Shown piece after piece: positions 4,580-37,843 of a stretch of 37,843 nucleotides of DNA (position 1 is its first letter; each line of letters opens with the position of its first letter). This DNA is from a virus. Location: UHGV virus genome UHGV-1372824. One strand, written 5' to 3'. The notes under the pieces were generated by a model. That model made no database searches and was not told where the DNA came from. It saw only the letters and a list, made by a program, of their open reading frames with translations. Made by a program: the position numbers and the translations under genes.

Positions 4580-4595
4580 TAAAATTGTAAAATTT

Positions 4596-4620: not shown

Positions 4621-4631
4621 AAGAGGTAATT

Positions 4632-5312: not shown

Positions 5313-5579
5313 AAGGTAGCGCTTATTTTTTTTGGTAAGTAACGTATAAGTAACAAATTTACTACCAAAACCCTTTAAGAATGGGTATTTTTCAACGATT
5401 TCAGATATTATATCGGTAATTCGCAGATATACATAGAATAAACCAACCCGCAAATTAAAAACAGCTTAAAACCTTGATAAATGTGCATTTTTCAACGCTT
5501 TTAGCTGTTTTTTGTTTTGTCTAAAATGCTTAAAAAACACCATAAAATCTTATTAAAAAGTAACACGTAAGTAACAGAT
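5313..5579. other. candidate attP / integrase arm-site region (AT-rich, repeat-rich intergenic)
   Basis: 25-nt direct repeats AAGTAAC..TAAGTAACA.ATTTA at 5337..5361 and 5558..5582; ATTTTTCAACG.TTT.AG repeated at 5386..5406 and 5485..5507; lies next to the int 3' end. Confidence 0.4.
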
Positions 5580-6752: not shown

Positions 6753-6766
6753 GCTGAATCACTCCT

Positions 6767-6793
6767 AAAAATAAAGGCGGGACATGCCCGCCT
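6767..6793 (-). terminator. rho-independent terminator of the lipoprotein gene
   Basis: GGCGGG-ACATG-CCCGCC hairpin; on the minus strand it is followed by TTTATTTTT. Confidence 0.5.
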
Positions 6794-6798
6794 GTTTA

Positions 6799-7221
6799 TT
6801 ACATCGCTGAATCCATATAGGCATCAGTTATTTGACCGGCATACTCTTCATATACGTCGTAAAGTTTTCCTGCCCATTCTTCGTATACTTCTTGTTCGTC
6901 TCCGTTTTCTAACATAAGCTCTGCCATTTTTTCTGTGCCCTCTGTTTCGATTTTAGCGAGCTCCTCAATCTTGCTGTTTGACAGCTCCGCAAGTGCGTTT
7001 ATATCGCCTGACAGTTCAGCGGCTTCCTCGTTATATTCATCAATGAGCCCTGGTGTTGCTTCTTCAATCTTCTGGGTATATTCTTCAAGGATGCTTTCGT
7101 ATGTTGCCGGTTCCGTTGCCGGTTCTGAGGATTCTCCGGAATCTCCGCCTGATCCGCAAGCCGTAAACGCAAAAACCATAGCCATCATAACCAACACTGA
7201 TATAATCTTCTTCATTTTCAT
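6799..7221 (-). CDS. secreted acidic lipoprotein (moron / lysogenic-conversion or superinfection-exclusion candidate)
   Basis: Signal peptide MKMKKIISVLVMMAMVFAFTAC with lipobox FTAC; very E/D-rich mature protein; strong RBS AGGAGGGAA; sits between int and cI. Confidence 0.6.
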   Translation of the reverse strand: MKMKKIISVLVMMAMVFAFTACGSGGDSGESSEPATEPATYESILEEYTQKIEEATPGLIDEYNEEAAELSGDINALAELSNSKIEELAKIETEGTEKMAELMLENGDEQEVYEEWAGKLYDVYEEYAGQITDAYMDSAM

Positions 7222-7481
7222 TCCCTCCTAAAATACATAGATAACTTATTCACCGTGCGGAGAGGGTGGAGGGCGTTCGTGCTTTTTATGTCCCATATCG
7301 TTTTCCTTTATTGTCGTAAATCTTCCTGCATTTTCCGTTGTGTCTGAATATTACAGACTTGTATAATATTTTCAGAAAGATATTTCAGTTGTGAAAGGAT
7401 GAAGTGCAATGACTAAAAACGAATACTTAGAATCAATCAACGAGCTTCTTTCCCAGGTTGAGAAAGAGAGCACTCTTGAAT

Positions 7482-7871
7482 TCATTTTCGTTCTGCTGAG
7501 GAAAATAATTTAAGACTGTCAAGCATAGACTTGACAGCTAACAGCTTACCATTGTCCATCTTGTACAGAGTCAGAACTAACTCACTATACAGCTTATCAG
7601 TTTCCATTCTTATTAAGACGTCCGTAGTGGCGTCTATTTTTTTACTTGTTTCGGGCTTGTCTGATTCCCATCCCATAATATAAGCGGGAGTGGTATTTAG
7701 AGCATTAGCAATAGCAACGATTTTGCTTTGTGGCAATCCGCTTGCGTCTCTTTCAATCTTATTAATGGAAGACCTGGACTTATACCCGAGCTTTTTCGCA
7801 AGGTCGTCCTGCGACATTTTCAAGCATTCACGTCTTTCTTTTATTCTGTCACCAATTTTTCCGTTAGACAT
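7482..7871 (-). CDS. CI-like repressor (XRE-family HTH)
   Basis: HTH LKMSQDDLAKKLGYKSRSSINKIE; divergent from a Cro-like gene; GGAGGG RBS. Confidence 0.7.
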   Translation of the reverse strand: MSNGKIGDRIKERRECLKMSQDDLAKKLGYKSRSSINKIERDASGLPQSKIVAIANALNTTPAYIMGWESDKPETSKKIDATTDVLIRMETDKLYSELVLTLYKMDNGKLLAVKSMLDSLKLFSSAERK

Positions 7872-7895
7872 TTGTGTTTCCCTCCCGTCAACATG

Positions 7896-7924
7896 ATTAT
7901 AACCGCCTGTATAATTTTTTTCAA
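7896..7924 (-). promoter_or_regulatory. candidate repressor-maintenance promoter (TTGAAA-17-TATAAT on the minus strand)
   Basis: Read as the reverse complement of 7896..7924; the -35 overlaps an operator half-site TTCAAC. Confidence 0.4.
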
Positions 7925-21349: not shown

Positions 21350-22665
21350 TGTTCCGATTAGCAAGAGACACGGAAATGACGCTCACACTTCTGAGCGAGT
21401 TTCTGACAAAACACGCCCATGAAGTAAAGAACAGGTACGAGCCGCTATACAATGCGTACACAAGTGACCACGAGATTCTGCACGACCCGGCAAAGCCAAA
21501 ATATAAACCTGACAACAGAGTTGTGGTCAACTTCCCAAAGTACATCGTGGATACGATGAACGGATTCTTTATCGGAAACCCGATTAAGATTGTTGCGGAA
21601 GACGAAGCTGTCGCAGATTATGTTGAATATCTGGACAGATACAATGACCAGGACGACAACAACGCAGAGCTTGCTAAGATATGCAGCATATACGGCAAAG
21701 GTAACGAAATGTATTACACCGATGAGGAGTCGGAGCTTTGCATCACATATTTAGATCCTAAAGAGGCATTCATGATATACGACGAGTCTATCATAGAAAG
21801 GCCTCTTTTCTTTGTGCGCAGATATGTAGACAGAGAGGGCTTCGAGTATGGGAGCATATCGGACGAAACGTCGGTGCGGAACTTCAAGGTGACAGGCGGG
21901 CTGAGATGGCTCGATGAATGGACGCCACATTATTTCCCGGGTGTTCCTGCAACAGAGTACGTGGAGAACGGAGAACGTCAGGGCATATTTGAACCGGTAA
22001 TGTCGATGGTCAACGCCTACAACAAGGCGATATCGGAAAAGGCGAACGATGTTGACTATTTCGCAGATGCTTATCTGAAAGTGCTTGGCACAGCCATAGA
22101 CAAGGACGATGTGCAATTCATCCGTGACAACAGAATCGTAAACTTCGAGGGTGACGGCTCAGACAAAATAATCGCAGAGTTTATGGAGAAACCTAATAGC
22201 GATACAACACAGGAAAATCTGCTTGAAAGACTTGAACGGCTTATCTTCCAGATATCAATGGTGGCCAACATCTCTGATGAGAACTTCGGAACATCCTCCG
22301 GCATTGCAATGAAGTACAAGCTCCAGTCAATGTCAAACCTTGAGAAGACAAAAGAAAGAAAGTTCACTGCCGGAATGAACCGCAGATATCAGCTCCTGTT
22401 CGGGCATCCCGCTTCAAAGGTTACTGCTGATGCGTGGATTCAGCTCCAGTACAAGTTCACTCCTAACATTCCGGCAAACCTTCAGGAGGAAGCGCAGATT
22501 GCATCACAGCTTGATGGAATTGTGTCGCATGAAACACAGCTTAAGGTTGTTTCAGCCGTTGAGGATGTCAAGGGCGAACTGGACAAAATCGAGGAAGAAA
22601 ACAAGCCTGTTTTGACGCCTGTTGACAGGCAGATGTTCCCGGACGAGGAAAAGGACAATGTTTAA
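21349..22665 (+). CDS. portal protein
   Basis: 438 aa directly after TerL; translationally coupled. Confidence 0.75.
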   Translation: MFRLARDTEMTLTLLSEFLTKHAHEVKNRYEPLYNAYTSDHEILHDPAKPKYKPDNRVVVNFPKYIVDTMNGFFIGNPIKIVAEDEAVADYVEYLDRYNDQDDNNAELAKICSIYGKGNEMYYTDEESELCITYLDPKEAFMIYDESIIERPLFFVRRYVDREGFEYGSISDETSVRNFKVTGGLRWLDEWTPHYFPGVPATEYVENGERQGIFEPVMSMVNAYNKAISEKANDVDYFADAYLKVLGTAIDKDDVQFIRDNRIVNFEGDGSDKIIAEFMEKPNSDTTQENLLERLERLIFQISMVANISDENFGTSSGIAMKYKLQSMSNLEKTKERKFTAGMNRRYQLLFGHPASKVTADAWIQLQYKFTPNIPANLQEEAQIASQLDGIVSHETQLKVVSAVEDVKGELDKIEEENKPVLTPVDRQMFPDEEKDNV

Positions 22666-23740
22666 CTTGCAGCTATTTGCATCGGCTGACTACTGGCGAA
22701 AGCGAGAGGAGCAGAACCTAAAAAGCAACCTCAAACAGGAGGCCGAATACGACAAGGAAATTGAGCGCATATACAAGGATATGCTCGATGCCACGCAAAA
22801 GGAAATAGACGCCTTTTTAGGCAAGTATGCTGATGCGGAGGGCATAACCCTTGCCGAAGCTAAAAAAAGGGTCTCACAGCTCGATATAGAGGCTTATGAG
22901 CGCAAGGCAAAGAAGTATGTCGAAGCCGCTTCACAGGATAGAGCGAACACGGGCAAGACAAACAAGCGGGCGTTTTACTTCTCGAAGCGGGCGAATGAGG
23001 AGATGCGGCTTTATAACCTCACAATGAAAGTAAACCGCCTTGAAATGCTGAAAGCCAACATCGGGCTTGAACTTATCAAAGGCCACGCAGAGCTTGAAAC
23101 ATTTATGAGCGAGATCCTGCAAGGCAGGACGCAGGAAGAACTGGAAAGACAGGCGGGAATACTCGGAAAGAGCATCAAGAACAATGCGAAGCTGGCAGAT
23201 ACAATCGTCAATGCGTCGTTCAAGAACGCTACATTTTCGGACAGGCTTTGGATGTACCACGACCAGATGAAAGCGGACCTGTCGAAGCTCCTGCAAAGCG
23301 GAATGATTCAGGGCAAGAACTCAAGACAGCTCGCAAAGGACCTGAGAAAGTACTACTACGGCCCCGAATACCTAAAGAACGGCAAGAAGGGTGCCGTGTA
23401 CAACACAGAACGGCTGATGCGCACGGAGCTTGCGAGAGTGCAGACAGAGGCACAGCGGCAGAGCTTCGAGAGAAACGGCTTCACGGAGTACACATTCCTT
23501 GCCCTTGCTGACTGTTGCGAAATATGCGCTGAAATAAACGGAAAACACTTCAAGGTAAAGGATATGATGCCTGGTGAGAATGCTCCTCCGATGCACCCTC
23601 ATTGCCGGTGCAGTACATCAGCTTATGAGGACAGCAAGGAATATGAAGCGTGGCTTGATTATCTTGAGAGCGGCGGAACTACTGAGGACTGGAACAAGTT
23701 CGGCAAGGCGAATTGGAAAGGAGAACAACATGGCCTGTAA
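22658..23740 (+). CDS. minor head protein (Mu F / SPP1 gp7 family); N-terminal LQLFA motif
   Basis: C-terminal ...ENAPPMHPHCRCST motif of the Mu F family; N-terminus MFNLQLFAS. Confidence 0.8.
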   Translation: MFNLQLFASADYWRKREEQNLKSNLKQEAEYDKEIERIYKDMLDATQKEIDAFLGKYADAEGITLAEAKKRVSQLDIEAYERKAKKYVEAASQDRANTGKTNKRAFYFSKRANEEMRLYNLTMKVNRLEMLKANIGLELIKGHAELETFMSEILQGRTQEELERQAGILGKSIKNNAKLADTIVNASFKNATFSDRLWMYHDQMKADLSKLLQSGMIQGKNSRQLAKDLRKYYYGPEYLKNGKKGAVYNTERLMRTELARVQTEAQRQSFERNGFTEYTFLALADCCEICAEINGKHFKVKDMMPGENAPPMHPHCRCSTSAYEDSKEYEAWLDYLESGGTTEDWNKFGKANWKGEQHGL

Positions 23741-23764
23741 AAAGAGAAAGGGAAAGAAAAAGAA

Positions 23765-23884
23765 ATGAAAACAATGCAAGAATATTACGCATACAGAATC
23801 AGAACGGGGCAGATGACCATTGACAGTGTCCCCGAAAAATGGAGAGCAGAAGTTGAGAAGCTGTTGGGGATGACCGAAGAATGA
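23765..23884 (+). CDS. small protein (39 aa)
   Basis: RBS GAAAGGGAAAG; ATGA overlap with the Prp-like gene. Confidence 0.3.
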   Translation: MKTMQEYYAYRIRTGQMTIDSVPEKWRAEVEKLLGMTEE

Positions 23885-24183
23885 TAGAAATACGCCAAGA
23901 CGGCAACAGAATCACTGTCAGAGGTCACGCAGAATATGCGGAACACGGCAGAGATATAGTGTGTGCGGCCATATCGACCCTCTCGCAGGTGTTTGTGGCT
24001 TCTGTGGAGGAATTGACCGCCGCACAAATAAAAACCGCTCAAACAGGCGGATATATGGAAATCGTTATTGAAGAGTCAACGGAACGTGCGCAAGTTCTGC
24101 TTGATTCTTTTTTATTAGGCTGTCGGATGATATCCGACCAGTACCCGGACAATGTTCGGGTTTTTTTAATGTCCAAGCTATGA
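23881..24183 (+). CDS. Prp-family (DUF464, ribosomal-processing cysteine protease-like) protease
   Basis: ITVRGHAEYAEHGRDIVCAAISTLSQ matches the Prp His/Cys dyad region GHADHGEYGHDIVCAGASAV. Confidence 0.7.
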   Translation: MIEIRQDGNRITVRGHAEYAEHGRDIVCAAISTLSQVFVASVEELTAAQIKTAQTGGYMEIVIEESTERAQVLLDSFLLGCRMISDQYPDNVRVFLMSKL

Positions 24184-24274
24184 CGACATAAAAAGCATTA
24201 GGAGCAGGGCAGGCGTGGAACCCTTAAAAGCTACGGAAAACAAGCGTTAAGTTTCAAAAAACGGAGGTAGAAGA

Positions 24275-24892
24275 ATGAAGAAACACTTACTTGATTTACA
24301 GCTCTTTGCGGATGAGGGAGCTGACGGCTCGGAAACTCAGGAGCCTGCAAACCCAAACAAGGAGACCAAAGAGGCAGAGGAGAAAGAGAACGAGCCGAAG
24401 CCTGAGAAGAAATACTCGGACGATGATGTGGACAAGATTCTGAACAAGAAGTTCGCTGAATGGGAGAAGAAGAAGCAGAAAGAAGTTGACGAGGCAAAGA
24501 AACTGGCGGATATGAACGCAAAGGAAAAAGCCGAGTATGAACGAGACAAGCTGCAGAAAGAGCTTGATGCGCTCAGGGAAAAAGACTCCCTGTCAGAAAT
24601 GACAAAGACAGCCCGCAAGATGCTGTCAGACGAGGGTGTAAGTGTTTCTGATGATGTACTGAGCATGATTGTCTCTACAGATGCGGAAAAGACAAAGGCG
24701 GCAGTTGATGCCTTTGCAAAAGCATTCAACGAGGCAGTTGAAGCGGCAGTAAAAGAGAAGCTGAAGGGCAACCCGCCAAAGAAGGGAACCGGCGGCGGCG
24801 CTCCGATGACGAAAGAACAGATCCTTGCAATCAAGGACAACGAAGCACGTCAGAAGGCGATGCTCGAAAACAGAGAACTATTTAATTTTTAG
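24275..24892 (+). CDS. scaffolding protein with N-terminal DLQLFA motif
   Basis: E/K-rich coiled-coil; sits between the portal/Mu F genes and the capsid gene. Confidence 0.65.
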   Translation: MKKHLLDLQLFADEGADGSETQEPANPNKETKEAEEKENEPKPEKKYSDDDVDKILNKKFAEWEKKKQKEVDEAKKLADMNAKEKAEYERDKLQKELDALREKDSLSEMTKTARKMLSDEGVSVSDDVLSMIVSTDAEKTKAAVDAFAKAFNEAVEAAVKEKLKGNPPKKGTGGGAPMTKEQILAIKDNEARQKAMLENRELFNF

Positions 24893-24903
24893 GAGGACAC
24901 ATA

Positions 24904-25800
24904 ATGAAAAAGTTTGATTTACAGATGTTTGCAGTAGATGCAAAGACAGTTAAGGAGGCCGACCTTGCAAAGGTAAGAGACGTTGACTTCACAGAAAGAT
25001 TCTCAAAAGGAATCGACACTCTTATGGCTATGCTGGGTGTTACAAGGAAGCAGGAAAAGAGAGCCGGTGAAGTTCTCAAGGTATACAAGGCAACAGGAAC
25101 TCTTGAATCAGGAGTAGTGGCAGAAGGTGAAGTAATTCCGCTCTCCAAGTATCAGACAACATATGAGGCCATTGGCGAAGCCGTTCTGAATAAGTGGAGA
25201 AAGGTTACTACTGCTGAAGCCATCTCCTCAAAGGGATACGGACAGGCAGTCAACGACACAAACGACAAGATGCTCAAGGACATTCAGAAGGGTGTTAGAA
25301 CTTCATTTGTTAATTTCCTTGCAACAGGTACAGGCGAAGCTGCAGGAACAGGACTTCAGGCAACACTTGCACAGGCTTGGGGACAGCTCCAGGTACTCTT
25401 TGAAGATACATCTGTTCAGTCTGTTTACTTCATGAACCCTCTCGATGTTGCTGACTATCTCGGAGGTGCACAGATTTCAACTCAGACTGCATTCGGTATG
25501 AGCTACATTGAGAACTTCCTGGGACTCGGTACAGTAATCCTGGCATCAGATGTTCCAAAGGGCAAGCTTTATGCAACTGCCGCTGAAAACATCGTGCTGT
25601 ACTACATCCCTGTTACTTCAGCAGATATGGCACAGGCATTCGACCTGACATCAGATGCAACCGGACTTATCGGAATTCACACTGGCCCGACTTACGACAA
25701 CCTGTCAGCCGAAACAGTAGCCGCTTCAGGTGTTGGCCTGTTCGCAGAAAAGCTCGATGGTATCGTAGTAGGCACTATCAATCCGGCAACAGGAGCATAA
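24904..25800 (+). CDS. major capsid protein with N-terminal DLQMFA motif
   Basis: Position after scaffold, strong RBS, 298 aa. Confidence 0.7.
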   Translation: MKKFDLQMFAVDAKTVKEADLAKVRDVDFTERFSKGIDTLMAMLGVTRKQEKRAGEVLKVYKATGTLESGVVAEGEVIPLSKYQTTYEAIGEAVLNKWRKVTTAEAISSKGYGQAVNDTNDKMLKDIQKGVRTSFVNFLATGTGEAAGTGLQATLAQAWGQLQVLFEDTSVQSVYFMNPLDVADYLGGAQISTQTAFGMSYIENFLGLGTVILASDVPKGKLYATAAENIVLYYIPVTSADMAQAFDLTSDATGLIGIHTGPTYDNLSAETVAASGVGLFAEKLDGIVVGTINPATGA

Positions 25801-25812
25801 GGAGGTTAAGCA

Positions 25813-26016
25813 ATGGCTTACAAGGTAATTAAGCTGTTCACTGACCTGCACGACAACGATTATCTCTATAAAGTGGGGGATACATTCCCCCGCAAAGGGA
25901 TATCGGTTACAGAAGAGCGCATCGCTGAACTGTCAGGCAGTGACAATAAACAGCACACTCCACTCATTGAGAAGGTGAGCCGAAGAGGAATAAAGCTTCC
26001 GGTAAGTAGGAGGTGA
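25813..26016 (+). CDS. hypothetical head-associated protein
   Basis: 67 aa. Confidence 0.4.
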   Translation: MAYKVIKLFTDLHDNDYLYKVGDTFPRKGISVTEERIAELSGSDNKQHTPLIEKVSRRGIKLPVSRR

Positions 26017-26020
26017 TATC

Positions 26021-26338
26021 GTGCTTGACAAGTTGAAACTTATGCTTGGAATTGAGGAAGCAGACCTTGACGAAAAGCTGTCGCTCATTCTCTCGGGCGC
26101 AACCTCAAGGCTCAAGATACTGCTCGGGGGCACAGAACCGCCTCAGGAGATGGAACACATTATCCTCGATGTGGCAATAGCACGGTTTAACCGCATCGGC
26201 TCCGAAGGGCTTACGGGTCATACTGTTGAGGGTGAGAGCCTGACATTCACTGAAAACGACTTTGACCAGTTTTCAGATGAAATACAGGCGTGGCTTTCCT
26301 GCAACAGCGAGAGCCGGGGAAAGTTGAGGTTCATATGA
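26021..26338 (+). CDS. head-tail connector (gp6/gp15-like)
   Basis: MLDKLKLMLGIEEADLDEKLSLIL N-terminus typical of this family; GTG start after AGGAGGTG. Confidence 0.55.
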   Translation: MLDKLKLMLGIEEADLDEKLSLILSGATSRLKILLGGTEPPQEMEHIILDVAIARFNRIGSEGLTGHTVEGESLTFTENDFDQFSDEIQAWLSCNSESRGKLRFI

Positions 26339-26628
26339 GATATGATACACCGATATATTTCCAGCATTACGGCAAGCCTGAATATAATCCTGCTACTGGT
26401 GATTATGAGCAGAGCCCTCCTGTTGAGCATAAGAGATACGCTTCGGTGACTGACTCGGGCATCGAGGTAATGAAGCTCGTATATAGCGACATAAAGCAGG
26501 GTAGCAAGGTGATACGGCTCCAGCGTCCATATACTGGAGCCTATGACAGCATCCGCATCGGGGATGAACGCTACCACGTGGATATGAGCCGCAAAGGCAA
26601 GGTCTATATCGTAAGCGAGGTGCAGTGA
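26335..26628 (+). CDS. head closure / head-tail adaptor protein
   Basis: About 97 aa; position. Confidence 0.5.
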   Translation: MRYDTPIYFQHYGKPEYNPATGDYEQSPPVEHKRYASVTDSGIEVMKLVYSDIKQGSKVIRLQRPYTGAYDSIRIGDERYHVDMSRKGKVYIVSEVQ

Positions 26629-26975
26629 TGGCTAAAATCAAATGGGAAGGCCTGGACAAGCTCCAGAAGAAGCTCAAAGAGAACGTCACAATGAACGACG
26701 TCAAAAGAGTCGTCAGGCAGAACGGGGCAGAGCTGCAGCAGAAGATACAGGAAAAAGCGGAATTCACGAAAGGCTATCAGACCGGGCAGACCAAAAGAAG
26801 CGTAAACCTTGAGATTAAGGGCGGCGGCTTCACAGCGGAGTCGGGCCCAACTACCGAGTATTCCCCGTATGTTGAGTACGGAACCCGCTTTATGGACGCA
26901 CAGCCTTTTGTCCGTCCTGCACTTGAGGAACAGGCATCGAAGTTCAAGAGAGATATGCAGAAACTTGTGAGGTGA
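26625..26975 (+). CDS. HK97 gp10-like tail-completion protein
   Basis: YSPYVEYGTRFMDAQPF motif. Confidence 0.6.
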   Translation: MMAKIKWEGLDKLQKKLKENVTMNDVKRVVRQNGAELQQKIQEKAEFTKGYQTGQTKRSVNLEIKGGGFTAESGPTTEYSPYVEYGTRFMDAQPFVRPALEEQASKFKRDMQKLVR

Positions 26976-26979
26976 TTAT

Positions 26980-27354
26980 ATGGACGTACAGCAGGCTGTA
27001 TTCACGCAGTTAAAGGTTGATATTGAATCGCTCGGATATGACGTATATGACGGTGAATTGCCGTCTGAAGGCACACCGTATCCGTTTGTGTATCTCGGCA
27101 ACAGCAATCAGAGCGACAACAGCACTAAGGCAGGTAACATCGGGACGGTCTCGCAGATGATACACGTGTGGCATAACGATGTACAAAAGCGGGGCACGGT
27201 CTCTGCTATGCTTGCGGATATCAAGGATGTTTGCAGAGAACTTGAGCGCAAATATCCTGTCATATTGTCGGGGATGACACAGGACATCCTGCCCGACAAC
27301 ACAACAACACAACCATTACTTCACGGCGTTTTGACCGTGAATTTATTGTTTTAG
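26980..27354 (+). CDS. tail terminator / completion protein
   Basis: Position immediately before the major tail protein. Confidence 0.45.
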   Translation: MDVQQAVFTQLKVDIESLGYDVYDGELPSEGTPYPFVYLGNSNQSDNSTKAGNIGTVSQMIHVWHNDVQKRGTVSAMLADIKDVCRELERKYPVILSGMTQDILPDNTTTQPLLHGVLTVNLLF

Positions 27355-27363
27355 GAGGTAAAC

Positions 27364-27891
27364 ATGAAGAAACTTGATTTACAGATGTTTGCGAAACCGG
27401 TCAGCGGCAAGAAGATTGTATATCTGTTCAGGGTGTTAGATTCTGCCGCAACCGATGACGCTGTGGCAATGGCATTCACAACAGAGAACACAAACACAAT
27501 CTCAAAAGACGCTGATTCGACGGTAACAAAGGACGGCACAATCAGAACTCCGGGCGGAGCTGAAATCGAAATCACAGCAACAGCACTTCTCGCACAGGGT
27601 GATACGCTGTACGACAAGCTCAAGGCGGCAATGATTGCTGATAAGCTGGTTGAGGTCTGGGAGGCAAACCTTGAGGAGCCTGCCGATAGTGGCGAAAACA
27701 AGTTCAAGGGTATGTACTACCAGGGCTATCTGACAGAGTTCGAGAAGACTTCAAACGCAGAGGATTATGTTGAATGTTCAACCACTTTCGCAATCAATGG
27801 CACCGGCGCAAGCGGAGATGTTACTGTAACGGCTGCACAGCAGGAAGTAGCGGCTTATGTCTTCACTGACACACAGAAGACAGGCGCATAA
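27364..27891 (+). CDS. major tail protein with N-terminal DLQMFA motif
   Basis: 175 aa; followed by a terminator and the chaperone/TMP genes. Confidence 0.65.
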   Translation: MKKLDLQMFAKPVSGKKIVYLFRVLDSAATDDAVAMAFTTENTNTISKDADSTVTKDGTIRTPGGAEIEITATALLAQGDTLYDKLKAAMIADKLVEVWEANLEEPADSGENKFKGMYYQGYLTEFEKTSNAEDYVECSTTFAINGTGASGDVTVTAAQQEVAAYVFTDTQKTGA

Positions 27892-27897
27892 CTAACA

Positions 27898-27927
27898 ACG
27901 GGGTGAAATATCCCCGTTTATTTTTTT
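27898..27927 (+). terminator. rho-independent terminator after the major tail gene
   Basis: ACGGGG-TGAAATAT-CCCCGT followed by TTATTTTTTT. Confidence 0.6.
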
Positions 27928-28657: not shown

Positions 28658-31546
28658 ATGTCAGATATGTCCGTAAGGGCGATATTATCAGCAGTTGACA
28701 GGGGTTTCTCCTCAACAATGAAGCAGGCGATGGGTATTGCCGGCAAACTTGACAAGAAAACAAGCAGCTTCATGACCGGAATACTGCAGGGCGCAGGACA
28801 GCAGGCTTTTTACATGTTGGCTGGCGGCTGCAGGGAGCTTGTATCGGAGATAGATGCATCGAATGTGGCTTGGAAGACTTTCGAGGGCAATATGCGAATC
28901 CTCGGCAAGAGCGATAAGCAGATAGGCAAGGTCAGAAAGTCTATGCAGAAATACGCAGAGCAGACCATCTACAGTTCATCCGATATGGCGTCCACATATT
29001 CACAGCTTGCGGCGGTTGGCGTCAAGTCAGCGGATAAACTGGTAACAGGCTTCGGCGGTCTTGCGGCTGCGGCCGAAAATCCACAGCAGGCAATGAAGAC
29101 ACTTTCACAGCAGGCTACACAGATGGCAGGAAGACCGAAAGTCGCTTGGCAGGACTTCAAGCTGATGCTTGAGCAGACTCCTGCGGGTATTGCGGCCGTA
29201 GCAAAAGAGATGGGAATGACCACCTCCGAGCTCGTAAGCAAAATCCAGGCTGGCGAGGTCAAGACAAAGGACTTCTTTAATGCGATTGAAAAGGTCGGCA
29301 ACAGTAAAGGCTTCACTAAGCTTGCGACATCGTACAAGTCTGCAGGGCAGGCTATGGACGGTCTGAAAGAGACCATCGGAAACAAGTTGACACCTGCATA
29401 TGATGCGCTGTCTAAGAAAGCTATAGGCGGAATCGAGGGCATTATTGACAAGGTCAGCGAGCTTGACGGCGAAGAAATCAAGGATAAGGTTCTGGCGGGA
29501 ATCGACAAGGCGATGCCATATTGGGAGCAGTTTAAGAATGTTCTTTCAGTAACAGGGACAGTGCTTAAAACTGTCGGAAAGTTCTTTATGAACCATTCGA
29601 ACATTCTCTCGAAGGGAATTCCGATAGTTCTCGGACTTGTTGCGGCGTACAAGGGCTTTAAGGTCGTCAATACAGTTGTCGGCGGCGTTAAGAGCTTCGT
29701 TGGAAGTATAACCTCGCTTGCCGGAGGAACAGGAAGCAAGGTTGCAGAAAATCTCAATAAAACGGCAACAGCACAGCAGAATGTCGGCAAGGTTAGCCAG
29801 GCATCATCAACACAGATGATGGCATCGGCAAAGGCATTTATGATGATGGGCGCAGGAGTGCTTCTGATTGCGGCGGGCTTCGGAATCCTCGCATATTCCG
29901 CTATTCAGTTAGCGAATGCAGGGCCTGCGGCAATAGCGGTAATGGCAGGAATGGTCGCCGCTCTTGTTGGAGTCAGCTTCGCTATGGCGGCGGTACTCAA
30001 GTTCCTTGCACCAATGTCGGCACAGCTTATGCCTGCGGCTACGGCGATGCTTGCTATGGGTGCGGCTGTCGTACTCGTTGCGGCAGGATTTGCGCTGATG
30101 TCTTATGCGGCTATACAGCTTGCTAACTCAGGCGGTCTTGCAATAGGAGTAATGGCCGGAATGGTAGTAGCTATGGCAGGGCTCATGGTTCTTGCGGCTG
30201 TCCTCGGTCCCGCTCTTACGGCAGGGGCTGTTGGCATGCTTGCATTCGGTGCGGCTGCACTTCTTGTAGGTGCGGGCGTTGCCCTTGCGTGTGTAGGTCT
30301 TGCACAGCTTGCAGGTGTTCTGCCTATCATTGTGGCATACGGAGTACAGGCGGCGGGTGCTATTGTGGCACTCGGAGCCGGTATGACCGTATTTGCGGCG
30401 GGTGCGCTTCTTGCGGGAGCGGCATCACTTGTACTTGGCGCAGGGCTTGTTGTAGCGGGGGCAGGAGCTCTTGTTGCGGCGGCTGGCGTAACTGCTCTTG
30501 GTGCAGGAGTATTGGTGCTCGGCGCAGGACTTCTTTTAACTGCGGCAGGAGCTACCATGCTTGCGGCGGCACTTCCGACAGTAGCGGCGGGCGCAATGAT
30601 GACTGGCGCATCCTTTACGATGCTTCTTGCAATGTCTGTGGCTCTTATGGCTGTAATGATTCCGCTCGGAGCTTCTATGACAGTATTAGGAGCAATGGCA
30701 CTTGTAGCAATGGCGGGCATCCTCGCATTCGGTGTGGCAATGACAACCGGTGCGGCGGGCACACTTGTAATGGCGGCGGCACTTAAAGCCGTGAACTCAA
30801 GTATGAAGAGTATTGCAAGCAGTGCCAACAGAGCGAAAAGCTCCCTCACATCAATGAGGGGTGCTGTGAAGACTGTTGAAAGCGGATTAAACGCCATTGG
30901 AAGCAAGGCGAAATCTGCAATGAGCAAGATGACAAGTGCATTCAGCGGAGCGGCAGGAAAGGCCAAGTCTGCGGGCAACCAGGTCGGTAAGGGGTTCTCA
31001 AACGGCGTAAAGTCTGGAATGAACACTGCCAAGTCTGCGGCATCCGCAGGAGTTAAGGCTGTAAACACAAAGCTCAAATCGGGAAGCGGTCAGGCTCGCA
31101 GTGCCGGTGCAATGATATCGAGAGGCTTTGCGGCGGGTATGCGGTCTTGCCTTGCGCAGATCAGGGCGGCGGCAAATGAAATGGTTAACGCCGCAAACAA
31201 AGCAATCCGGGCCAAGGCTAAAATCAAATCACCGTCGAGGGTAACTAAAGCATTAGGCGGATACTATGGCGAAGGTTACGAGCTTGGTATTCTCGATATG
31301 GTCAGAGATGCCAAGCGTGCGGCAGAAAAGCTCGTTTCTGTACCAACTGCATCCGTTCCGGCGCTTGCAATGGCATACGAGGGCGGTCTTTCATCTGAGT
31401 ATGACTATTACAGGCAGAACGAGTACAGAATTGAGGTACCGCTTACTATAGACGGCAGAGAGGTTGCCAGAACAACGGTTGACTACACTCAGGAGGAGCT
31501 CGACAAGAGAGAGAGACGAAATAACAGAAAGAAAGGAAAGGTTTAA
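28658..31546 (+). CDS. tape measure protein
   Basis: 962 aa; helical ends; roughly 300-residue A/G/L/V/M-rich tandem-repeat core. Confidence 0.85.
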   Translation: MSDMSVRAILSAVDRGFSSTMKQAMGIAGKLDKKTSSFMTGILQGAGQQAFYMLAGGCRELVSEIDASNVAWKTFEGNMRILGKSDKQIGKVRKSMQKYAEQTIYSSSDMASTYSQLAAVGVKSADKLVTGFGGLAAAAENPQQAMKTLSQQATQMAGRPKVAWQDFKLMLEQTPAGIAAVAKEMGMTTSELVSKIQAGEVKTKDFFNAIEKVGNSKGFTKLATSYKSAGQAMDGLKETIGNKLTPAYDALSKKAIGGIEGIIDKVSELDGEEIKDKVLAGIDKAMPYWEQFKNVLSVTGTVLKTVGKFFMNHSNILSKGIPIVLGLVAAYKGFKVVNTVVGGVKSFVGSITSLAGGTGSKVAENLNKTATAQQNVGKVSQASSTQMMASAKAFMMMGAGVLLIAAGFGILAYSAIQLANAGPAAIAVMAGMVAALVGVSFAMAAVLKFLAPMSAQLMPAATAMLAMGAAVVLVAAGFALMSYAAIQLANSGGLAIGVMAGMVVAMAGLMVLAAVLGPALTAGAVGMLAFGAAALLVGAGVALACVGLAQLAGVLPIIVAYGVQAAGAIVALGAGMTVFAAGALLAGAASLVLGAGLVVAGAGALVAAAGVTALGAGVLVLGAGLLLTAAGATMLAAALPTVAAGAMMTGASFTMLLAMSVALMAVMIPLGASMTVLGAMALVAMAGILAFGVAMTTGAAGTLVMAAALKAVNSSMKSIASSANRAKSSLTSMRGAVKTVESGLNAIGSKAKSAMSKMTSAFSGAAGKAKSAGNQVGKGFSNGVKSGMNTAKSAASAGVKAVNTKLKSGSGQARSAGAMISRGFAAGMRSCLAQIRAAANEMVNAANKAIRAKAKIKSPSRVTKALGGYYGEGYELGILDMVRDAKRAAEKLVSVPTASVPALAMAYEGGLSSEYDYYRQNEYRIEVPLTIDGREVARTTVDYTQEELDKRERRNNRKKGKV

Positions 31547-34897: not shown

Positions 34898-35587
34898 ATG
34901 GCAATTAAGGCAGTGGATCAGATAACCATCGTCGATGTGACCGACGCTTATTCGGTCATCTTAACAAGTGAAGCGTACACCTTTGTAGGGAATACATCGG
35001 GAGCTCCGTCGGGGCTCTCGTGCTCTACACAGGCAGTAGCGTTCTGCGGTTCAAATCAATGCTCCGTGGTGAATGTTACGGCATCGGACATTGAATGTCC
35101 GTCGGGTATTTCCGCAACAGTCACAAACAGCGGCACATCATCACCTACAATCACATTCAGGACCACGGCAACAATAACGGATGCCTGCGAGGCAACTATT
35201 CCTGTTGTGGTAGACGGAATCACGGTGAATAAGAAGTTCTCTTTTGCAGTAGCAAAGAAGGGAGCGACCGGGACGGCTGGCACCAACGGAACAAACGGCA
35301 CAAACGGAAAGGACGGAGCCGCCGGAGCTGATGCAATATCAATGGCAATATCAAGCTCAAACGGAACCGTATTCAAGAACAATTCCGGCTCGACAGTGTT
35401 AACAGCTCACGTATACAAGGGCGGTGTTGAGCAGTCAATCACGGATGCCGGAGTGTGCGGCACGCTTGGTAGCGTCAAATGGTACAAGGGAGGGGATGCC
35501 ACGGCAATAGCAACGGCAAAATCAGTAACAGTAAATGCGGCTGATGTTGCAAGCGCAGTAGCGTACACTTGTAAGCTGGAGCAGTAA
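34898..35587 (+). CDS. tail fibre component with collagen-like GATGTAGTNGTNGTNGKDGAAGADA and Ig-like domain
   Basis: Gly-X-Y run; domain paralogous to the C-terminus of the preceding gene. Confidence 0.5.
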   Translation: MAIKAVDQITIVDVTDAYSVILTSEAYTFVGNTSGAPSGLSCSTQAVAFCGSNQCSVVNVTASDIECPSGISATVTNSGTSSPTITFRTTATITDACEATIPVVVDGITVNKKFSFAVAKKGATGTAGTNGTNGTNGKDGAAGADAISMAISSSNGTVFKNNSGSTVLTAHVYKGGVEQSITDAGVCGTLGSVKWYKGGDATAIATAKSVTVNAADVASAVAYTCKLEQ

Positions 35588-37479
35588 TGACTGTAAGGGC
35601 AAGCGCCACGGTCACGGTCTCGAAATACCGGGATATAACATCGACCGTGCGGTACTACAAATTGCAGACCTCGACATTGTCCGCTCCCGCAAAGCCCACA
35701 ACAAACCCTCCGAGCGGGTGGAGCGATTCAGAGCCGGCATATTCGAGCGGCACATATACGTTATACTTCTGCGACCTCTCTGTTTTTTCGGATGGCACCT
35801 GGAGTTATTCGGCGGTCAGCAAGTCAAGCAGCTATGAAGCGGCAAAGGAAGCCTACAACAAGGCGGTTGAAGCGGCAAAGGTTGCAACAAACTTTATGCT
35901 TCTGACCGATGAGGACGGACTTGTCATCGGTAACATAACGGCGAATGTTCTCCGGGGCAACATACAACTAAAAGCAGAGACAAGCGGAGCATCAATATCA
36001 CTTCGAGACGGCACGAACATTCTCGCAAGGTTCTCGGCAACAAATAAGTCGTTCACCGGCATTACATCGGCTGTGACTTCAACCTCGAGTGATTCAAGCT
36101 CAGAACAGGGGGAGGCGGGAAGCTCAAGCGGAACAATTACAGGTGCATCGCAGACAGTCACAAGCGGGCAGTCAAAAGACATCGTGAAGATTGAGAGCCT
36201 TAACCCTGTTTACTTTCCGCAAGGAATTACAACAGACGGGGTTATTGTCAACGACGACAGCTTGATATCCAATGTGGATTTCACTCTGAACGGCAGAATC
36301 TTTGATAAGAACGGCAGATCTGCATTCGAACCGTACACAGGAGACGGGAACCTGTCAATCGGATATGGGCGTTTCAAGGCCGCCACGGCAAGCAGTACGG
36401 ACTGGAGCATTCTTTATGGGAATAAGGTCAAGCTCGCCACAAAAAACGGTGTATGGCTCACTCAGGACGGCTCAGTGGCATTTGAGACATACAATTCCAA
36501 CGGCAACATGTCGATGGGCTACCACCTTTACAAGAAGGGCACCGGAGACTTGAATCTGTACGGCGGGGCTGACATCAATCTGCGAGCCAAAACGACATCC
36601 ATTATAGACTCCACGGGAAGCTCCTGCTTCGAAGCTAAAAACGCTAACGGTAACACGGTTATCGGGTATGCCCGGTACTCCAAAGGCGGCAATACTAATA
36701 TTTATGGAGGAACCGAAATAAATTTAGTAACCAATAGCGGAAATGTTGTTGCTAATTGTTCGATAATACCAGAGACAAATTCGTCGATGGCATTAGGCAA
36801 GTACAACGAGCTCGGATGGTCGAACATCTATATCGGAAATGCCAGCGGGGTGTATAACGGGCTTCGTGTTATTGTAGACGGCTCAAGTAAGAACCTATGC
36901 GGTAGAGACGGAGACGGACACGTTATCTTCGGAAATATTGACGGTGTAATGCATTACCAGGCTAAGAATGTTAACGCCTCAAACACCGGTAATGCGTTCA
37001 GAATCACTTCCGGGAATAACGACGCAAAGAACAACACAACTTCTATATGGCTATTCGGTGCGGCTGACTCCACATCCCGATATATCGGCTCTTATATGGC
37101 ATACGACCGCACATATTCCTCTGCGGCAAATATGGTGGTTACTGGAAACGGAGTATTCGGGCGCAGTACATCATCATCTGAGCGATACAAAACCGATATA
37201 GAACTTGCCGACATCGGAGAGCTGAAAGGTCTTTACAGTCTGCCTGTCAAGCGGTTCAAGTATCGCAAAGACTACATTGCAGAGGATGACGAGCTGTACA
37301 ACACGGATATATACGGCTTTATCGTGGAAGACCTGGAGGAAGTGCTACCGTGTGCGGTACAGCATATAGAATCTGACGACGGCACGAAACTGCCCGAGAT
37401 GTGGAACAGTAACATCATCGTGCCGGCACTATTAAGTCTTATTCAAGACCTGAACAACAGAGTAAGCGTTCTTGAATGA
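35587..37479 (+). CDS. tail fibre / receptor-binding protein with C-terminal S74-type intramolecular chaperone (self-cleaving) domain
   Basis: Three tandem ~45-aa repeats (FE.Y..NGN.S.GY.RYKKG...N.YGG..INL); C-terminal SERYKTDIELADIGELKGLYSLPVKRFKY...IVPALLSLIQDLNNRVSVLE resembles endosialidase/L-shaped fibre chaperone domains. Confidence 0.6.
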   Translation: MTVRASATVTVSKYRDITSTVRYYKLQTSTLSAPAKPTTNPPSGWSDSEPAYSSGTYTLYFCDLSVFSDGTWSYSAVSKSSSYEAAKEAYNKAVEAAKVATNFMLLTDEDGLVIGNITANVLRGNIQLKAETSGASISLRDGTNILARFSATNKSFTGITSAVTSTSSDSSSEQGEAGSSSGTITGASQTVTSGQSKDIVKIESLNPVYFPQGITTDGVIVNDDSLISNVDFTLNGRIFDKNGRSAFEPYTGDGNLSIGYGRFKAATASSTDWSILYGNKVKLATKNGVWLTQDGSVAFETYNSNGNMSMGYHLYKKGTGDLNLYGGADINLRAKTTSIIDSTGSSCFEAKNANGNTVIGYARYSKGGNTNIYGGTEINLVTNSGNVVANCSIIPETNSSMALGKYNELGWSNIYIGNASGVYNGLRVIVDGSSKNLCGRDGDGHVIFGNIDGVMHYQAKNVNASNTGNAFRITSGNNDAKNNTTSIWLFGAADSTSRYIGSYMAYDRTYSSAANMVVTGNGVFGRSTSSSERYKTDIELADIGELKGLYSLPVKRFKYRKDYIAEDDELYNTDIYGFIVEDLEEVLPCAVQHIESDDGTKLPEMWNSNIIVPALLSLIQDLNNRVSVLE

Positions 37480-37500
37480 GCATGAGAAAGGAAACTGATA

Positions 37501-37843
37501 ATGACAATTAAAGCACAGGCATTGACTACCCTTGTAATTAACAAGGATGGCGAGGCAGGTCCGCAAGGCGAACCTGGAGCTGACGGCTATTCCCCGACAG
37601 TAACCACAGGCACATCATCAGACGGAAGCACTACGGTAACTGTTACAAACAAGGACGGTTCAACGACAACCGTACTTGTAGACGGAACAGCGAGAACTGG
37701 CGTTGATTCACTTAATGACACTGTATTCGGAGTACAGACTTTTGAGTATATCCTTGACGGTGTAACCATCCCTGCCCACAAAAGGGAAGACGGCACTTAT
37801 TACTACATCCTCAACGATGAGGAAGTTACGGTTGCAGAAGCTG
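37501..37843 (+). CDS. tail fibre protein, 5' part (open at window end), collagen-like GEAGPQGEPGADG
   Basis: ATG 37501; no stop before the window end. Confidence 0.5.
   Translation, partial: MTIKAQALTTLVINKDGEAGPQGEPGADGYSPTVTTGTSSDGSTTVTVTNKDGSTTTVLVDGTARTGVDSLNDTVFGVQTFEYILDGVTIPAHKREDGTYYYILNDEEVTVAEA

What the first reader, a model, noticed from the sequence alone, without database searches (positions are those of the whole stretch)
22658..27405. L27-like N-terminal cleavage motif (D/N)LQ(L/M)FA present on four structural proteins, including the major tail protein
N-termini read directly from the sequence. Minor head Mu F protein: MFNLQLFAS. Scaffold: MKKHLLDLQLFAD. Major capsid protein: MKKFDLQMFAV. 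Major tail protein: MKKLDLQMFAK. This is the L27/Prp recognition motif (cleavage after FA) known from Firmicute ribosomal protein L27 and from staphylococcal phage capsid and scaffold proteins. Its presence on a major tail protein and on the Mu F-type minor head protein is not the commonly described case. The MCP and MTP share a 19-nt identical DNA stretch, TTGATTTACAGATGTTTGC, across the motif. That suggests exchange of a short leader cassette between genes.
Basis: partly seen in the sequence, partly recalled or inferred. Interest (0 to 1): 0.65.

Follow-up and report, generated by a model that had tools for sequence, protein, structure and literature searches.

The report
Phage-encoded Prp protease with four leader-tagged substrates
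A temperate gut phage carries its own copy of the bacterial protease (Prp) that trims ribosomal protein L27, together with four virion proteins (two head proteins, the scaffold and the tail tube protein) that begin with an L27-like cleavage tag, so it probably brings its own enzyme for a maturation step so far described only with the host's enzyme.

Summary
[DN]LQ[LM]FA occurs exactly four times in the six-frame translation (0.007 expected). All four sit 8-12 residues from Shine-Dalgarno-preceded starts of the Mu F minor head protein, scaffold, major capsid protein (MCP) and major tail protein (MTP).

It encodes a Prp-family cysteine protease: Pfam PF04327 E=8e-23, all mutationally essential S. 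aureus Prp residues conserved, and an AF2 model matching SaPrp 7KLD at TM 0.88.

The arrangement portal, Mu F, Prp, scaffold, MCP, then MTP recurs in gut Clostridia prophages and in Oenococcus, Brochothrix and Latilactobacillus phages.
- Leaders are usual on scaffold (16/18), MTP (8/10) and MCP (7/10).
- A leader on Mu F is rare (1/19).
- Leaderless homologues start at, or within a few residues of, the predicted cut site.

The 19-nt MCP/MTP identity does not support cassette exchange. It follows from the same peptide plus leader-wide codon habits (p about 0.05-0.09), and all three flanking synonymous sites differ.

Verdict: a real, uncharacterised variant of the known Prp/L27-leader system. 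It is phage-encoded and spans head and tail. No cleavage was demonstrated here.

The parts
22658..23740 (+). Mu F / SPP1 gp7-type minor head protein (360 aa). Its start overlaps the portal stop codon. It is a short form without the C-terminal toxin domain seen in many close homologues.
   Evidence: PF04233 E=4.7e-17, phrog_115 E=1e-105, TIGR01641; homologue lengths
22658..22681 (+). Mu F leader MFNLQLFA; predicted cut after Ala8, written MFNLQLFA|SADYWRKRE as elsewhere in this report
   Evidence: About 45 of the top 120 homologues carry NLQ[QL]FA. The leaderless ones start M[NDS]SKEYWRKRE, at the predicted mature end.
23765..23884 (+). 39-aa ORF whose stop overlaps the prp start (ATGA). A 38-aa gene sits in the same place on the independent contig L009.
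   Evidence: function unknown
23881..24183 (+). Phage-encoded Prp-family cysteine protease (100 aa). Predicted catalytic His16 (23926-23928) and Cys28 (23962-23964).
   Evidence: PF04327 80.9 bits against a cut-off of 27. PDB sequence hits 2g0i, 2idl, 4peo/7kld. G15, H16, G23, D25, C28 and S32 are invariant in 21 phage Prps and correspond to SaPrp G21, H22, G29, D31, C34 and S38. AF2 pLDDT 90.9; Foldseek top hit 7KLD, TM 0.88, rmsd 2.0 A.
24275..24892 (+). Head scaffolding protein (205 aa). Leader MKKHLLDLQLFA (24275-24310), predicted cut before D13.
   Evidence: PF14265 E=2.7e-35, phrog_172; 16/18 scaffolds in Prp-encoding loci carry the motif
24904..25800 (+). Major capsid protein (298 aa). 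Leader MKKFDLQMFA (24904-24933), predicted mature N-terminus VDAKTVKEADLAK.
   Evidence: phrog_544 E=3.4e-55. Leaderless homologues begin MAVDPKLIKKADLAR, at the predicted cut; 19/150 family representatives carry the leader.
27364..27891 (+). Major tail (tube) protein, TP901-1 family (175 aa). Leader MKKLDLQMFA (27364-27393), predicted mature N-terminus KPVSGKKIVY.
   Evidence: PF06199 and TIGR02126, whose model starts at residue 10. 110/120 closest homologues carry xLQxFA. Solved leaderless homologues 9m7c Gp11 and 80alpha gp53 start at about residues 9-10. In the AF2 model residues 1-12 are coil with pLDDT below 50.

Best explanation
The window is a complete temperate siphophage genome from a gut Clostridia (probably Lachnospiraceae) host.

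Its late operon encodes a small Prp-family cysteine protease between the Mu F and scaffold genes. Four virion proteins are made as precursors with an 8-12-residue N-terminal leader that copies the leader of the host's ribosomal protein L27: hydrophobic-[D/N]-L-Q-[L/M]-F-A.

The proposed mechanism has four steps.
1. The Prp dimer binds the leader in an extended conformation, with P1 Phe, P3 Gln and P4 Leu as the main determinants.
2. Cys28 attacks the scissile bond at the end of the motif, assisted by His16. By analogy with S. aureus L27 and 80alpha this is the Phe-Ala bond; the '|' marks used in this report are drawn after the Ala and so are one residue off from that bond.
3. The leader is released. 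This leaves mature N-termini equal to, or within a few residues of, those of leaderless homologues.
4. Because the tail tube protein never enters the procapsid, cleavage must act on soluble subunits in the cytoplasm. That differs from a classical prohead protease, which works inside the shell.

The phage copy probably supplies enough enzyme for hundreds of MCP, scaffold and MTP copies per virion without depending on the host's essential ribosomal Prp. The leader, and possibly Prp binding itself, most likely acts as a folding or assembly-licensing tag, as the scaffold leader does in phage 80alpha.

Shown here: the motifs, the gene, conserved catalytic residues and fold, conserved synteny, and co-occurrence across phages. 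Inferred: that cleavage occurs, that the phage enzyme rather than the host enzyme performs it, and what the leader is for.
For: Motif and translation:
- Four motifs, all N-terminal, against 0.007 expected by chance.
- Shine-Dalgarno sequences precede the leader ATGs.

The protease:
- The Prp gene meets the Pfam threshold.
- It aligns to solved Prps with H16/C28 on SaPrp H22/C34.
- All residues whose mutation inactivates SaPrp (G21, H22, D31, C34, S38; PMC9405229) are invariant in 21 phage Prps.
- The AF2 model matches substrate-bound SaPrp at TM 0.88.
- No other protease domain was found in the head-tail module.

Conservation across phages:
- The synteny portal, Mu F, Prp, scaffold, MCP, then MTP, with leaders, recurs in 7 metagenomic loci, in about 20 prophage loci of named Clostridia MAGs, and in cultured Oenococcus, Brochothrix and Latilactobacillus phages.
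- The tally is scaffold 16/18, MTP 8/10, MCP 7/10, Mu F 1/19, and portal, terminase, tape measure and connectors 0.
- Phage leaders share the P6-P1' profile of 57 L27 leaders, including Lachnospiraceae MMKMNLQLFA|HKKG.

Position of the cut:
- Leaderless homologues of MCP (MAVDPK...), Mu F (MNSKEYWRKRE...) and MTP (MAEAVQGKK..., 9m7c, 80alpha gp53) begin at or within a few residues of the predicted cut.

Precedent:
- Host Prp cleaves 80alpha CP and SP at F|A, and the SP leader is required for assembly (PMC5744158).

Suggestive contrast (two phages only):
- Brochothrix BL3 has its own Prp and leaders on scaffold, MCP and MTP. Brochothrix NF5 has no Prp gene and a leader on the scaffold only.
Against: - No cleavage was observed; everything rests on sequence and structure prediction.
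- The host almost certainly has its own Prp, whose L27 substrate has the same P6-P1' motif, so the phage enzyme is not demonstrably required.
- In 80alpha, cleavage itself is dispensable for viability (PMC5744158), so processing may be incidental to another role of the leader.
- The phage Prp scores far below all 12 NCBIfam Prp equivalog cut-offs (63 against 166 bits). It also has clade-specific residues along helix alpha-1 near the substrate groove, so its specificity could differ.
- The P2 residues Met (MCP, MTP) and Gln (most Mu F relatives) are not seen among the 57 L27 leaders surveyed here.
- The NJ tree separating phage from ribosomal Prps has no support values.
Confidence: 0.7

Rival explanations
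1. The host's ribosomal Prp does the processing, as in 80alpha. The phage Prp is then either redundant or has a different job, such as acting on host L27 or ribosome maturation during infection, or compensating for Prp shortage in lysogens.
For: Phage leaders and host-type L27 leaders share P6-P1'. Phages without their own Prp still carry leaders: 80alpha CP and SP, phi13 MTP and the NF5 scaffold. A mobile-element protease (Rrp) can substitute for Prp in S. pneumoniae TIGR4 (bioRxiv 10.64898/2026.08.10.744006).
Against: The prp gene always sits inside the late head module, directly upstream of the scaffold and MCP genes. That placement fits a morphogenetic role rather than host manipulation. 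In the one matched pair examined, the phage with its own Prp has more leader-tagged, high-copy substrates (BL3 against NF5). The phage Prp clade is old and stably phage-borne.
Confidence: 0.15
2. The leader is mainly a binding tag. Prp, phage or host, acts as a chaperone or assembly gate that holds subunits until release, and proteolysis is secondary or dispensable. This is compatible with the best explanation and differs only in emphasis.
For: In 80alpha the SP leader is essential but its cleavage is not, and CP cleavage is dispensable (PMC5744158). A chaperone role of Prp for L27 has been proposed (PMC9405229). The leader is attached to self-polymerising proteins (capsid, scaffold, tail tube). 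In the AF2 model the MTP leader is a flexible, exposed coil.
Against: The catalytic dyad and every residue needed for catalysis are invariant in all phage Prps examined, which argues that catalysis is under selection. P1 Phe and P1' Ala are invariant in 58 phage leaders.
Confidence: 0.25
3. One reading: the MCP and MTP leaders are a short DNA cassette recently exchanged between genes within this genome.
For: There is a 19-nt exact identity. Leaders are modular at family level, present or absent with a breakpoint at the cleavage site in the MCP, MTP and Mu F families.
Against: Identity at the four synonymous sites has p about 0.05-0.09 given the same peptide. TTA/TTG, CAG and TTT dominate in 32 leaders from 12 loci regardless of gene. 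The three synonymous sites flanking the 19-mer all differ. Orthologous MTPs at 94-86% identity already carry MKK[LF]DLQMFA.
Confidence: 0.07
4. Chance similarity or mis-called start codons, with true starts lying downstream of the motif.
For: MCP and MTP have an internal Met at P2 that could in principle serve as a start.
Against: Strong Shine-Dalgarno sequences sit before the first ATG, not before the internal Met. The observed count is 4 against 0.007 expected. The whole leader is conserved in 110/120 MTP homologues.
Confidence: 0.01

Closest known systems
Staphylococcus aureus Prp (MEROPS C108; PDB 4PEO, 7KLD) processing L27 and the phage 80alpha capsid and scaffold proteins
   Same: Same protease fold and catalytic residues. 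Same substrate logic: a short N-terminal leader ending in LQxF|A. Capsid and scaffold proteins are substrates (PMC5744158; PMC9405229).
   Different: Here the protease gene is on the phage, in the head module, not in the host rplU-prp-rpmA operon. It falls below the NCBIfam equivalog cut-offs. There are four substrates rather than two, including the tail tube protein and a Mu F-type minor head protein. P2 can be Met or Gln, and P2' is acidic or variable rather than Ser/His-Lys-Lys.
phi13 major tail protein carrying the Prp motif (one-sentence remark in Kizziah et al. 2017, PMC5744158)
   Same: A tail tube protein with an N-terminal ...KLNLQHFA|D leader, verified here.
   Different: phi13 has no Prp gene and uses an HK97-type head protease for its capsid. 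Its MTP belongs to a different, longer family. Cleavage has not been reported experimentally in the papers I could read.
Classical phage prohead proteases (HK97 gp4/S78, lambda C/S49, T4 gp21/U9)
   Same: A phage-encoded protease located between the portal and capsid genes that trims capsid and scaffold proteins during morphogenesis.
   Different: Unrelated fold and chemistry. Those enzymes are packaged and act inside the procapsid, usually removing long delta or scaffold domains. Here only 8-12 residues are removed, and a tail protein is a substrate, so the enzyme must act in the cytoplasm.
Rrp (SP_1145) of S. pneumoniae TIGR4, a mobile-element-borne protease that rescues L27 processing (bioRxiv 10.64898/2026.08.10.744006)
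   Same: A horizontally mobile, phage-like element carries an enzyme able to remove the L27-type leader.
   Different: Rrp is an Ntn hydrolase with loose specificity and no known phage substrates. The protein here is a true Prp homologue with its own set of tagged substrates.

Membership tests
Prp cysteine protease (Pfam PF04327 / MEROPS C108) | Sequence matches the family model above the curated threshold | tested here: met
   PF04327 80.9 bits against a gathering score of 27, E=7.9e-23, covering profile positions 12-90 of 90
Prp cysteine protease (Pfam PF04327 / MEROPS C108) | Catalytic His/Cys dyad (SaPrp H22/C34) and the essential G21, D31 and S38 | tested here: met
   H16, C28, G15, D25 and S32 align to these residues. 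They are invariant in 21 phage Prps and near-universal in 93 Prps. Residue roles are taken from PMC9405229.
Prp cysteine protease (Pfam PF04327 / MEROPS C108) | Prp fold (two beta-beta-alpha units plus a terminal strand) | tested here: met
   AF2 pLDDT 90.9. The top 14 Foldseek PDB hits are all Prps; the best is 7KLD at TM 0.88, rmsd 2.0 A.
Ribosomal-processing Prp (NCBIfam equivalogs NF0111xx; the rplU-prp-rpmA operon gene) | Scores above an equivalog cut-off and lies between the L21 and L27 genes | tested here: not met
   The best equivalog score is 63 bits against a cut-off of 166; all 12 models fall below their cut-offs. The gene lies between Mu F and scaffold. 54 ribosomal-context loci collected for comparison have L27 directly downstream.
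Prp cysteine protease (Pfam PF04327 / MEROPS C108) | Cleaves after Phe in ...LQxF|A leaders | not testable with these tools
   Needs a biochemical assay or virion proteomics
Prp substrates (L27-type N-terminal leader) | Motif (D/N)-L-Q-(F/L)-F|A within the first 8-15 residues, small P1' residue | tested here: met
   All four proteins have [D/N]LQ[L/M]FA at residues 3-12. The profile is the same as 57 L27 leaders, except P2 Met in two of the four.
Prp substrates (L27-type N-terminal leader) | P2'-P3' (S/H)-K-K as in L27 | tested here: not met
   P2' is S, D, V or K here. The known 80alpha substrates also lack this feature (ADQS, ASNN), so it is specific to L27 and not required for cleavage.
Prp substrates (L27-type N-terminal leader) | Leader absent from the mature protein | not testable with these tools
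   Indirect support only: leaderless homologues start at or near the predicted cut
Classical prohead protease systems (S78/U35, S49/S14, U9) | Homologous protease domain in the head module | tested here: not met
   No such Pfam or PHROG hit for any ORF from terminase to tape measure

The most novel reading that the evidence does not exclude
A distinct, stably phage-borne clade of Prp proteases forms a single cytoplasmic 'licensing' system. It would co-ordinate head, tail and ejection-protein maturation through one shared leader tag, which is a different logic from procapsid-confined proteases. Because it recognises the same tag as L27, a temperate phage carrying it could also process host L27, and so could spread resistance to future Prp-targeting antibiotics or alter ribosome maturation during infection.
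Probability: 0.2. Interest if true: 0.75.

Novelty: new variant of a known kind. Interest (0 to 1): 0.5.

Why it matters
Prp-mediated leader removal is known from one experimental phage system (80alpha), where the enzyme is the host's. Why L27 and phage proteins carry the leader at all is still stated as an open question by the discovering labs (PMC5744158; bioRxiv 10.64898/2026.08.10.744006).

Phages that bring their own Prp and tag up to four structural proteins, including the tail tube, offer a self-contained system that can be manipulated genetically. Enzyme and substrates sit on one small genome, the phage gene is not essential to the host, and cultured relatives exist (Brochothrix BL3, Oenococcus phiS13, Dorea DO134P1). 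That makes it possible to test whether the leader is a folding tag, an assembly brake or a regulatory device.

It also bears on Prp as a proposed narrow-spectrum antibiotic target, because temperate phages of gut Firmicutes commonly carry a mobile Prp paralogue.

For annotation, these genes are currently labelled 'peptidase' or 'hypothetical'. The predicted mature N-termini of MCP, MTP, scaffold and Mu F proteins in many Firmicute phages should be corrected by 8-12 residues.

Tried and rejected
- Megablast of the 8.5-kb head-tail region against 50,697 GenBank phages found no match.
- A viral-contig scan with the single Prp sequence gave no confirmed relative. I switched to tblastn and to metagenome and genome look-ups.
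- From the alignment start positions, I first inferred that S. pyogenes prophage MTPs carry the leader. Reading Javan489 directly showed they do not, so that claim was dropped.
- I considered recent leader-cassette exchange and rejected it after the codon analysis.
- I considered mis-called starts at the internal Met and rejected this on Shine-Dalgarno positions.
- I looked for group-specific active-site changes that might explain the broader P2 tolerance. Only helix alpha-1 and core differences appeared (positions 38, 40, 66, 77, 81), with no clear specificity determinant.
- Seven literature searches found no description of phage-encoded Prp or of tail-protein cleavage beyond the phi13 remark. 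The two key Wall et al. papers (PMC4418427, PMC5397363) are not held, so I cannot exclude that they mention phage-borne homologues.
- The AF2 model of the MTP is only moderate (pLDDT 71.6). I used it only to say that the leader is unstructured.

Full report
**1. Observation**

In this report '|' is drawn after the Ala that ends the motif. In S. aureus L27 and 80alpha the published cut is between Phe and Ala (PMC5744158, PMC9405229), so the true mature ends may start one residue earlier, at that Ala.

A six-frame scan with the strict motif and with looser variants returns these four sites and no others. In 300 shuffles of the window the strict motif appears 0.007 times on average. Each start codon has a GGAGG-like Shine-Dalgarno sequence at the usual distance. 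The internal Met at P2 of MCP and MTP has none, so the leaders are translated.

The protein identities hold:
- PF04233 / TIGR01641 for Mu F
- PF14265 for the scaffold
- phrog_544 for the MCP
- PF06199 / TIGR02126 for the MTP
- an SPP1-type portal and a Terminase_3 large subunit upstream

The 19-nt identity between MCP and MTP is real.

**2.

A 100-aa ORF at 23881-24183, between Mu F and scaffold, reads ...GHAEYAEHGRDIVCAAIS.... It is a Prp-family cysteine protease.
- It scores 80.9 bits on PF04327 against a threshold of 27 and hits phrog_4478 'peptidase'.
- It aligns to the solved Prps of S. mutans, S. pneumoniae and S. aureus, placing His16 and Cys28 on the SaPrp dyad His22/Cys34.
- In an alignment of 21 phage homologues, G15, H16, G23, D25, C28 and S32 are invariant. 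These correspond to SaPrp G21, H22, G29, D31, C34 and S38. Mutation of G21, H22, D31, C34 or S38 abolishes SaPrp activity (PMC9405229).
- An AlphaFold2 model (pLDDT 90.9) has only Prps among its 14 significant PDB matches. The best is substrate-bound SaPrp 7KLD (TM 0.88, rmsd 2.0 A).
- No other protease domain is present from terminase to tape measure.

It is not the ribosomal gene. It scores far below all twelve NCBIfam 'ribosomal-processing cysteine protease Prp' equivalog cut-offs (63 against 166 bits for the best), and it lies in a phage late operon.

**3. Surroundings**

The window is a whole temperate siphophage genome in circular permutation:
- tail fibre, CBM5/12 and CHAP lysin genes at the start
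- an S24 repressor (4632-5312)
- an integrase (5580-6752, minus strand)
- a replication module, then terminase, head and tail genes

It has no close DNA relative among deposited phages. The exact Prp protein occurs on a human-gut metagenome contig. The best-named relatives of its proteins come from Dorea and Lachnospiraceae MAGs.

**4. Relatives**

tblastn with the Prp finds 20 GenBank phage records. One of them, MT836103, turned out to be a bacterial rplU-prp-rpmA fragment. The rest include:
- Dorea phage DO134P1
- Acutalibacter phage Fontainebleau
- Oenococcus phages phiS13, phi9805 and phiS11
- Brochothrix phage BL3
- Latilactobacillus phage TMW 1.1365 P3

In the Oenococcus, Brochothrix and Latilactobacillus phages, and in the closest faecal contig, the scaffold, MCP and MTP all begin with xLQxFA leaders.

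Seven metagenomic loci recovered through Prp homologues share the same order: portal, Mu F, variable small genes, Prp, scaffold, MCP, then MTP. All have leaders on scaffold, MCP and MTP.

A scan of one genome per species with the Prp alignment returned 80 loci. Of the 96 loci then in hand (80 from this scan plus 16 fetched earlier), my first-pass classifier put 54 in the ribosomal operon, with an L27 gene carrying its leader directly downstream. It put 27 in phage head modules and left 15 unclear; a slightly looser L27 pattern moved three of the unclear ones to ribosomal.

Across the phage-context loci the strict motif is present on 16/18 scaffolds, 8/10 MTPs and 7/10 MCPs, plus several unclassified MCP-sized ORFs. 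It is on only 1/19 Mu F proteins and on no portal, terminase, tape measure, connector or chaperone.

Family-wide searches agree:
- 110 of the 120 closest MTP homologues have xLQxFA, and the rest have near-variants.
- About 45 of the top 120 Mu F homologues have NLQ[QL]FA, essentially those above roughly 78% identity.
- In the broad MCP family, 19 of 150 cluster representatives have it.

The Mu F leader is the rare feature, confined to the window's subclade (the window and L010/L011).

**5. Position of the cut**

Leaderless homologues act as natural controls.
- MCPs without the leader begin MAVDPKLIKKADLAR..., against the window's ...QMFAVDAKTVKEADLAK. After removal of the initiator Met these would start AVDPK, which matches a Phe|Ala cut in the window protein.
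- Mu F proteins without it begin M[NDS]SKEYWRKRE..., against ...LFASADYWRKRE.
- One MTP homologue starts MAEAVQGKK... where its relatives have ...FAEAVQGKK.
- The solved leaderless tube proteins 9m7c Gp11 and 80alpha gp53 start at about window residues 9-10. Reading Brochothrix NF5 shows its MTP begins MAEAKKG and matches the aligned 9m7c sequence.
- The TIGR02126 model begins at residue 10.

The leader is therefore a discrete add-on whose boundary coincides with the end of the motif. In the moderate-confidence AF2 model of the MTP, residues 1-12 are unstructured with pLDDT below 50, as expected for an accessible tag.

**6. Comparison with L27**

In the 57 L27 leaders collected here, P5 is N or D, P4 is L, P3 is Q, P2 is L or F, P1 is F, P1' is A, P2' is H or S, and P3' is K. 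Lachnospiraceae and Blautia read MMKMNLQLFAHKKG.

The 58 phage leaders share P5 to P1'. They also allow M, K, R, H or Q at P2, and they mostly have acidic residues after the Ala.

A neighbour-joining tree of 93 Prps puts the gut-Clostridia phage enzymes in one clade next to the Lachnospiraceae ribosomal Prps. The enzymes from Lactobacillales and Brochothrix phages lie elsewhere on long branches. The tree has no support values, so this is suggestive only. The phage clade has its own conserved residues along helix alpha-1 and in the core.

**7. Mechanism**

The best-supported reading is that the phage supplies its own Prp, which removes the leaders from four virion proteins at the end of the LQxFA motif.

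Because the tail tube protein is a substrate, the enzyme must work on free subunits in the cytoplasm. This is consistent with 80alpha, where proteins isolated from procapsids are already cut (PMC5744158).

Why carry the gene? The likely reason is supply. MCP, scaffold and MTP are needed in hundreds of copies per virion, while the host enzyme serves ribosome assembly. One matched pair fits this. Brochothrix BL3 has its own Prp and three tagged proteins. Brochothrix NF5 has no Prp gene and only a tagged scaffold. Likewise 80alpha (two substrates) and phi13 (MTP only) lack the gene.

What the leader does is inferred by analogy. In 80alpha the scaffold leader is essential for assembly, while cleavage is not. 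A folding, chaperone or anti-polymerisation role is therefore plausible.

Nothing here demonstrates cleavage.

**8. The cassette idea**

Given identical residues, the four synonymous sites inside the 19-mer match with probability about 0.05 using window codon usage, and about 0.09 using the codon usage of leaders themselves.

Across 32 leaders from 12 loci, the motif Leu is TTA or TTG in 28, Gln is CAG in 22 and Phe is TTT in 21, whatever the gene. In this window TTA accounts for only 10% of Leu codons overall. So the shared codons are a property of leaders in general, either an AT-rich 5' bias or old common descent.

The three synonymous sites flanking the 19-mer (two Lys, one Ala) all differ. 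The nearest MTP orthologues already carry MKK[LF]DLQMFA.

Recent exchange within the genome is not supported. What is supported is modular gain and loss of leaders over longer times.

**9. Known or new**

The Prp/L27-leader system and its use by 80alpha are established. One sentence in Kizziah et al. 2017 notes the motif on the phi13 MTP and the phage 80 CP.

I found no paper in the searchable library describing phage-encoded Prp, processing of a tail or Mu F protein, or this conserved gene arrangement. The discovering lab's 2025 and 2026 preprints still refer only to 'some staphylococcal bacteriophages'. The two Wall et al. papers could not be read.

Databases label the gene 'peptidase' or 'hypothetical'.

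I therefore class this as a new variant of a known kind. The features are real and widespread in Firmicute siphophages. They are of moderate interest to specialists and would be useful as a tractable model, but not categorically new.

Noticed in passing
window 22658-23740: Close homologues of this Mu F protein (90-96% identity) are often 500-600 aa long and carry C-terminal toxin-type domains (PF15644, PF21814, PF12294). The window has a short 360-aa form without such a domain, so the C-terminal cargo is swapped or lost between near-identical phages.
   Followed up: partly
window 23765-23884: A 39-aa ORF (MKTMQEYYAYRIRTGQMTIDSVPEKWRAEVEKLLGMTEE) has a stop codon that overlaps the prp start (ATGA). 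A 38-aa gene occupies the same place on the independent gut contig L009. Function unknown; it may be translationally coupled to Prp.
   Followed up: partly
window 24143-24161 and 27897-27918: There are two terminator-like hairpins with T-runs. One lies inside the last codons of prp, where most relatives' Prp ends 5 residues earlier at ...VRVF. The other lies just after the MTP gene, a common place for attenuation before the tail chaperone genes.
   Followed up: no
window 25813-26016: A 67-aa ORF directly after the MCP matches PHROG families named 'Arc-like repressor' (E=1e-20). A 65-76-aa ORF sits at the same position in every related head module examined. That placement suggests a structural or morphogenetic role and makes the regulatory label doubtful.
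   Followed up: no
window 1-7900 and 35587-37843: The window is a complete, circularly permuted temperate phage genome. A tail fibre with an S74 chaperone domain sits at the end. A Listeria-Bacteroides-repeat protein, a CBM5/12 protein and a CHAP lysin sit at the start. An S24 repressor (4632-5312) and an integrase (5580-6752, minus strand) follow.
   Followed up: partly
window 28658-31546: The tape measure protein has a central stretch of roughly 330 residues made almost entirely of A, G, V, L and M, which is hydrophobic and repeat-like.
   Followed up: no
L008 (GenBank MT836103, 'Bacteriophage sp.', human faeces), about 5500-6100: This record is a bacterial rplU-prp-rpmA fragment, with an L27 starting [24 protein letters not shown]. 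It is not phage DNA, so the deposited virome record is mis-binned.
   Followed up: yes
L002 (Acutalibacter phage Fontainebleau) 9001-11289: This is a variant system. Scaffold and MCP begin MKKHFNLQLFDDGG and MKKRFFNLQLFDTDA, with Asp where the other leaders have Ala. The phage's Prp has Asn in place of the otherwise invariant Asp25. Its MTP belongs to another family and has no leader.
   Followed up: partly
L006 (Latilactobacillus phage TMW 1.1365 P3) 655-885; L016 1931-2629: Two proteins outside the structural module carry motif-like N-termini: a 76-aa protein MEIKQVPSRMQLQLFAD..., and a 232-aa protein ...KFNIQLFGGRG. They may be non-structural Prp substrates, or chance matches.
   Followed up: no
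L004 (Brochothrix BL3) and L099 (Brochothrix NF5): These two phages infect the same host genus. BL3 encodes a Prp and has leaders on scaffold, MCP and MTP. NF5 has no Prp gene, a leader only on its scaffold (KLNIQYFAE...), and an MTP starting MAEAKKG. The NF5 MTP matches the aligned sequence of the solved chain 9m7c Gp11.
   Followed up: partly
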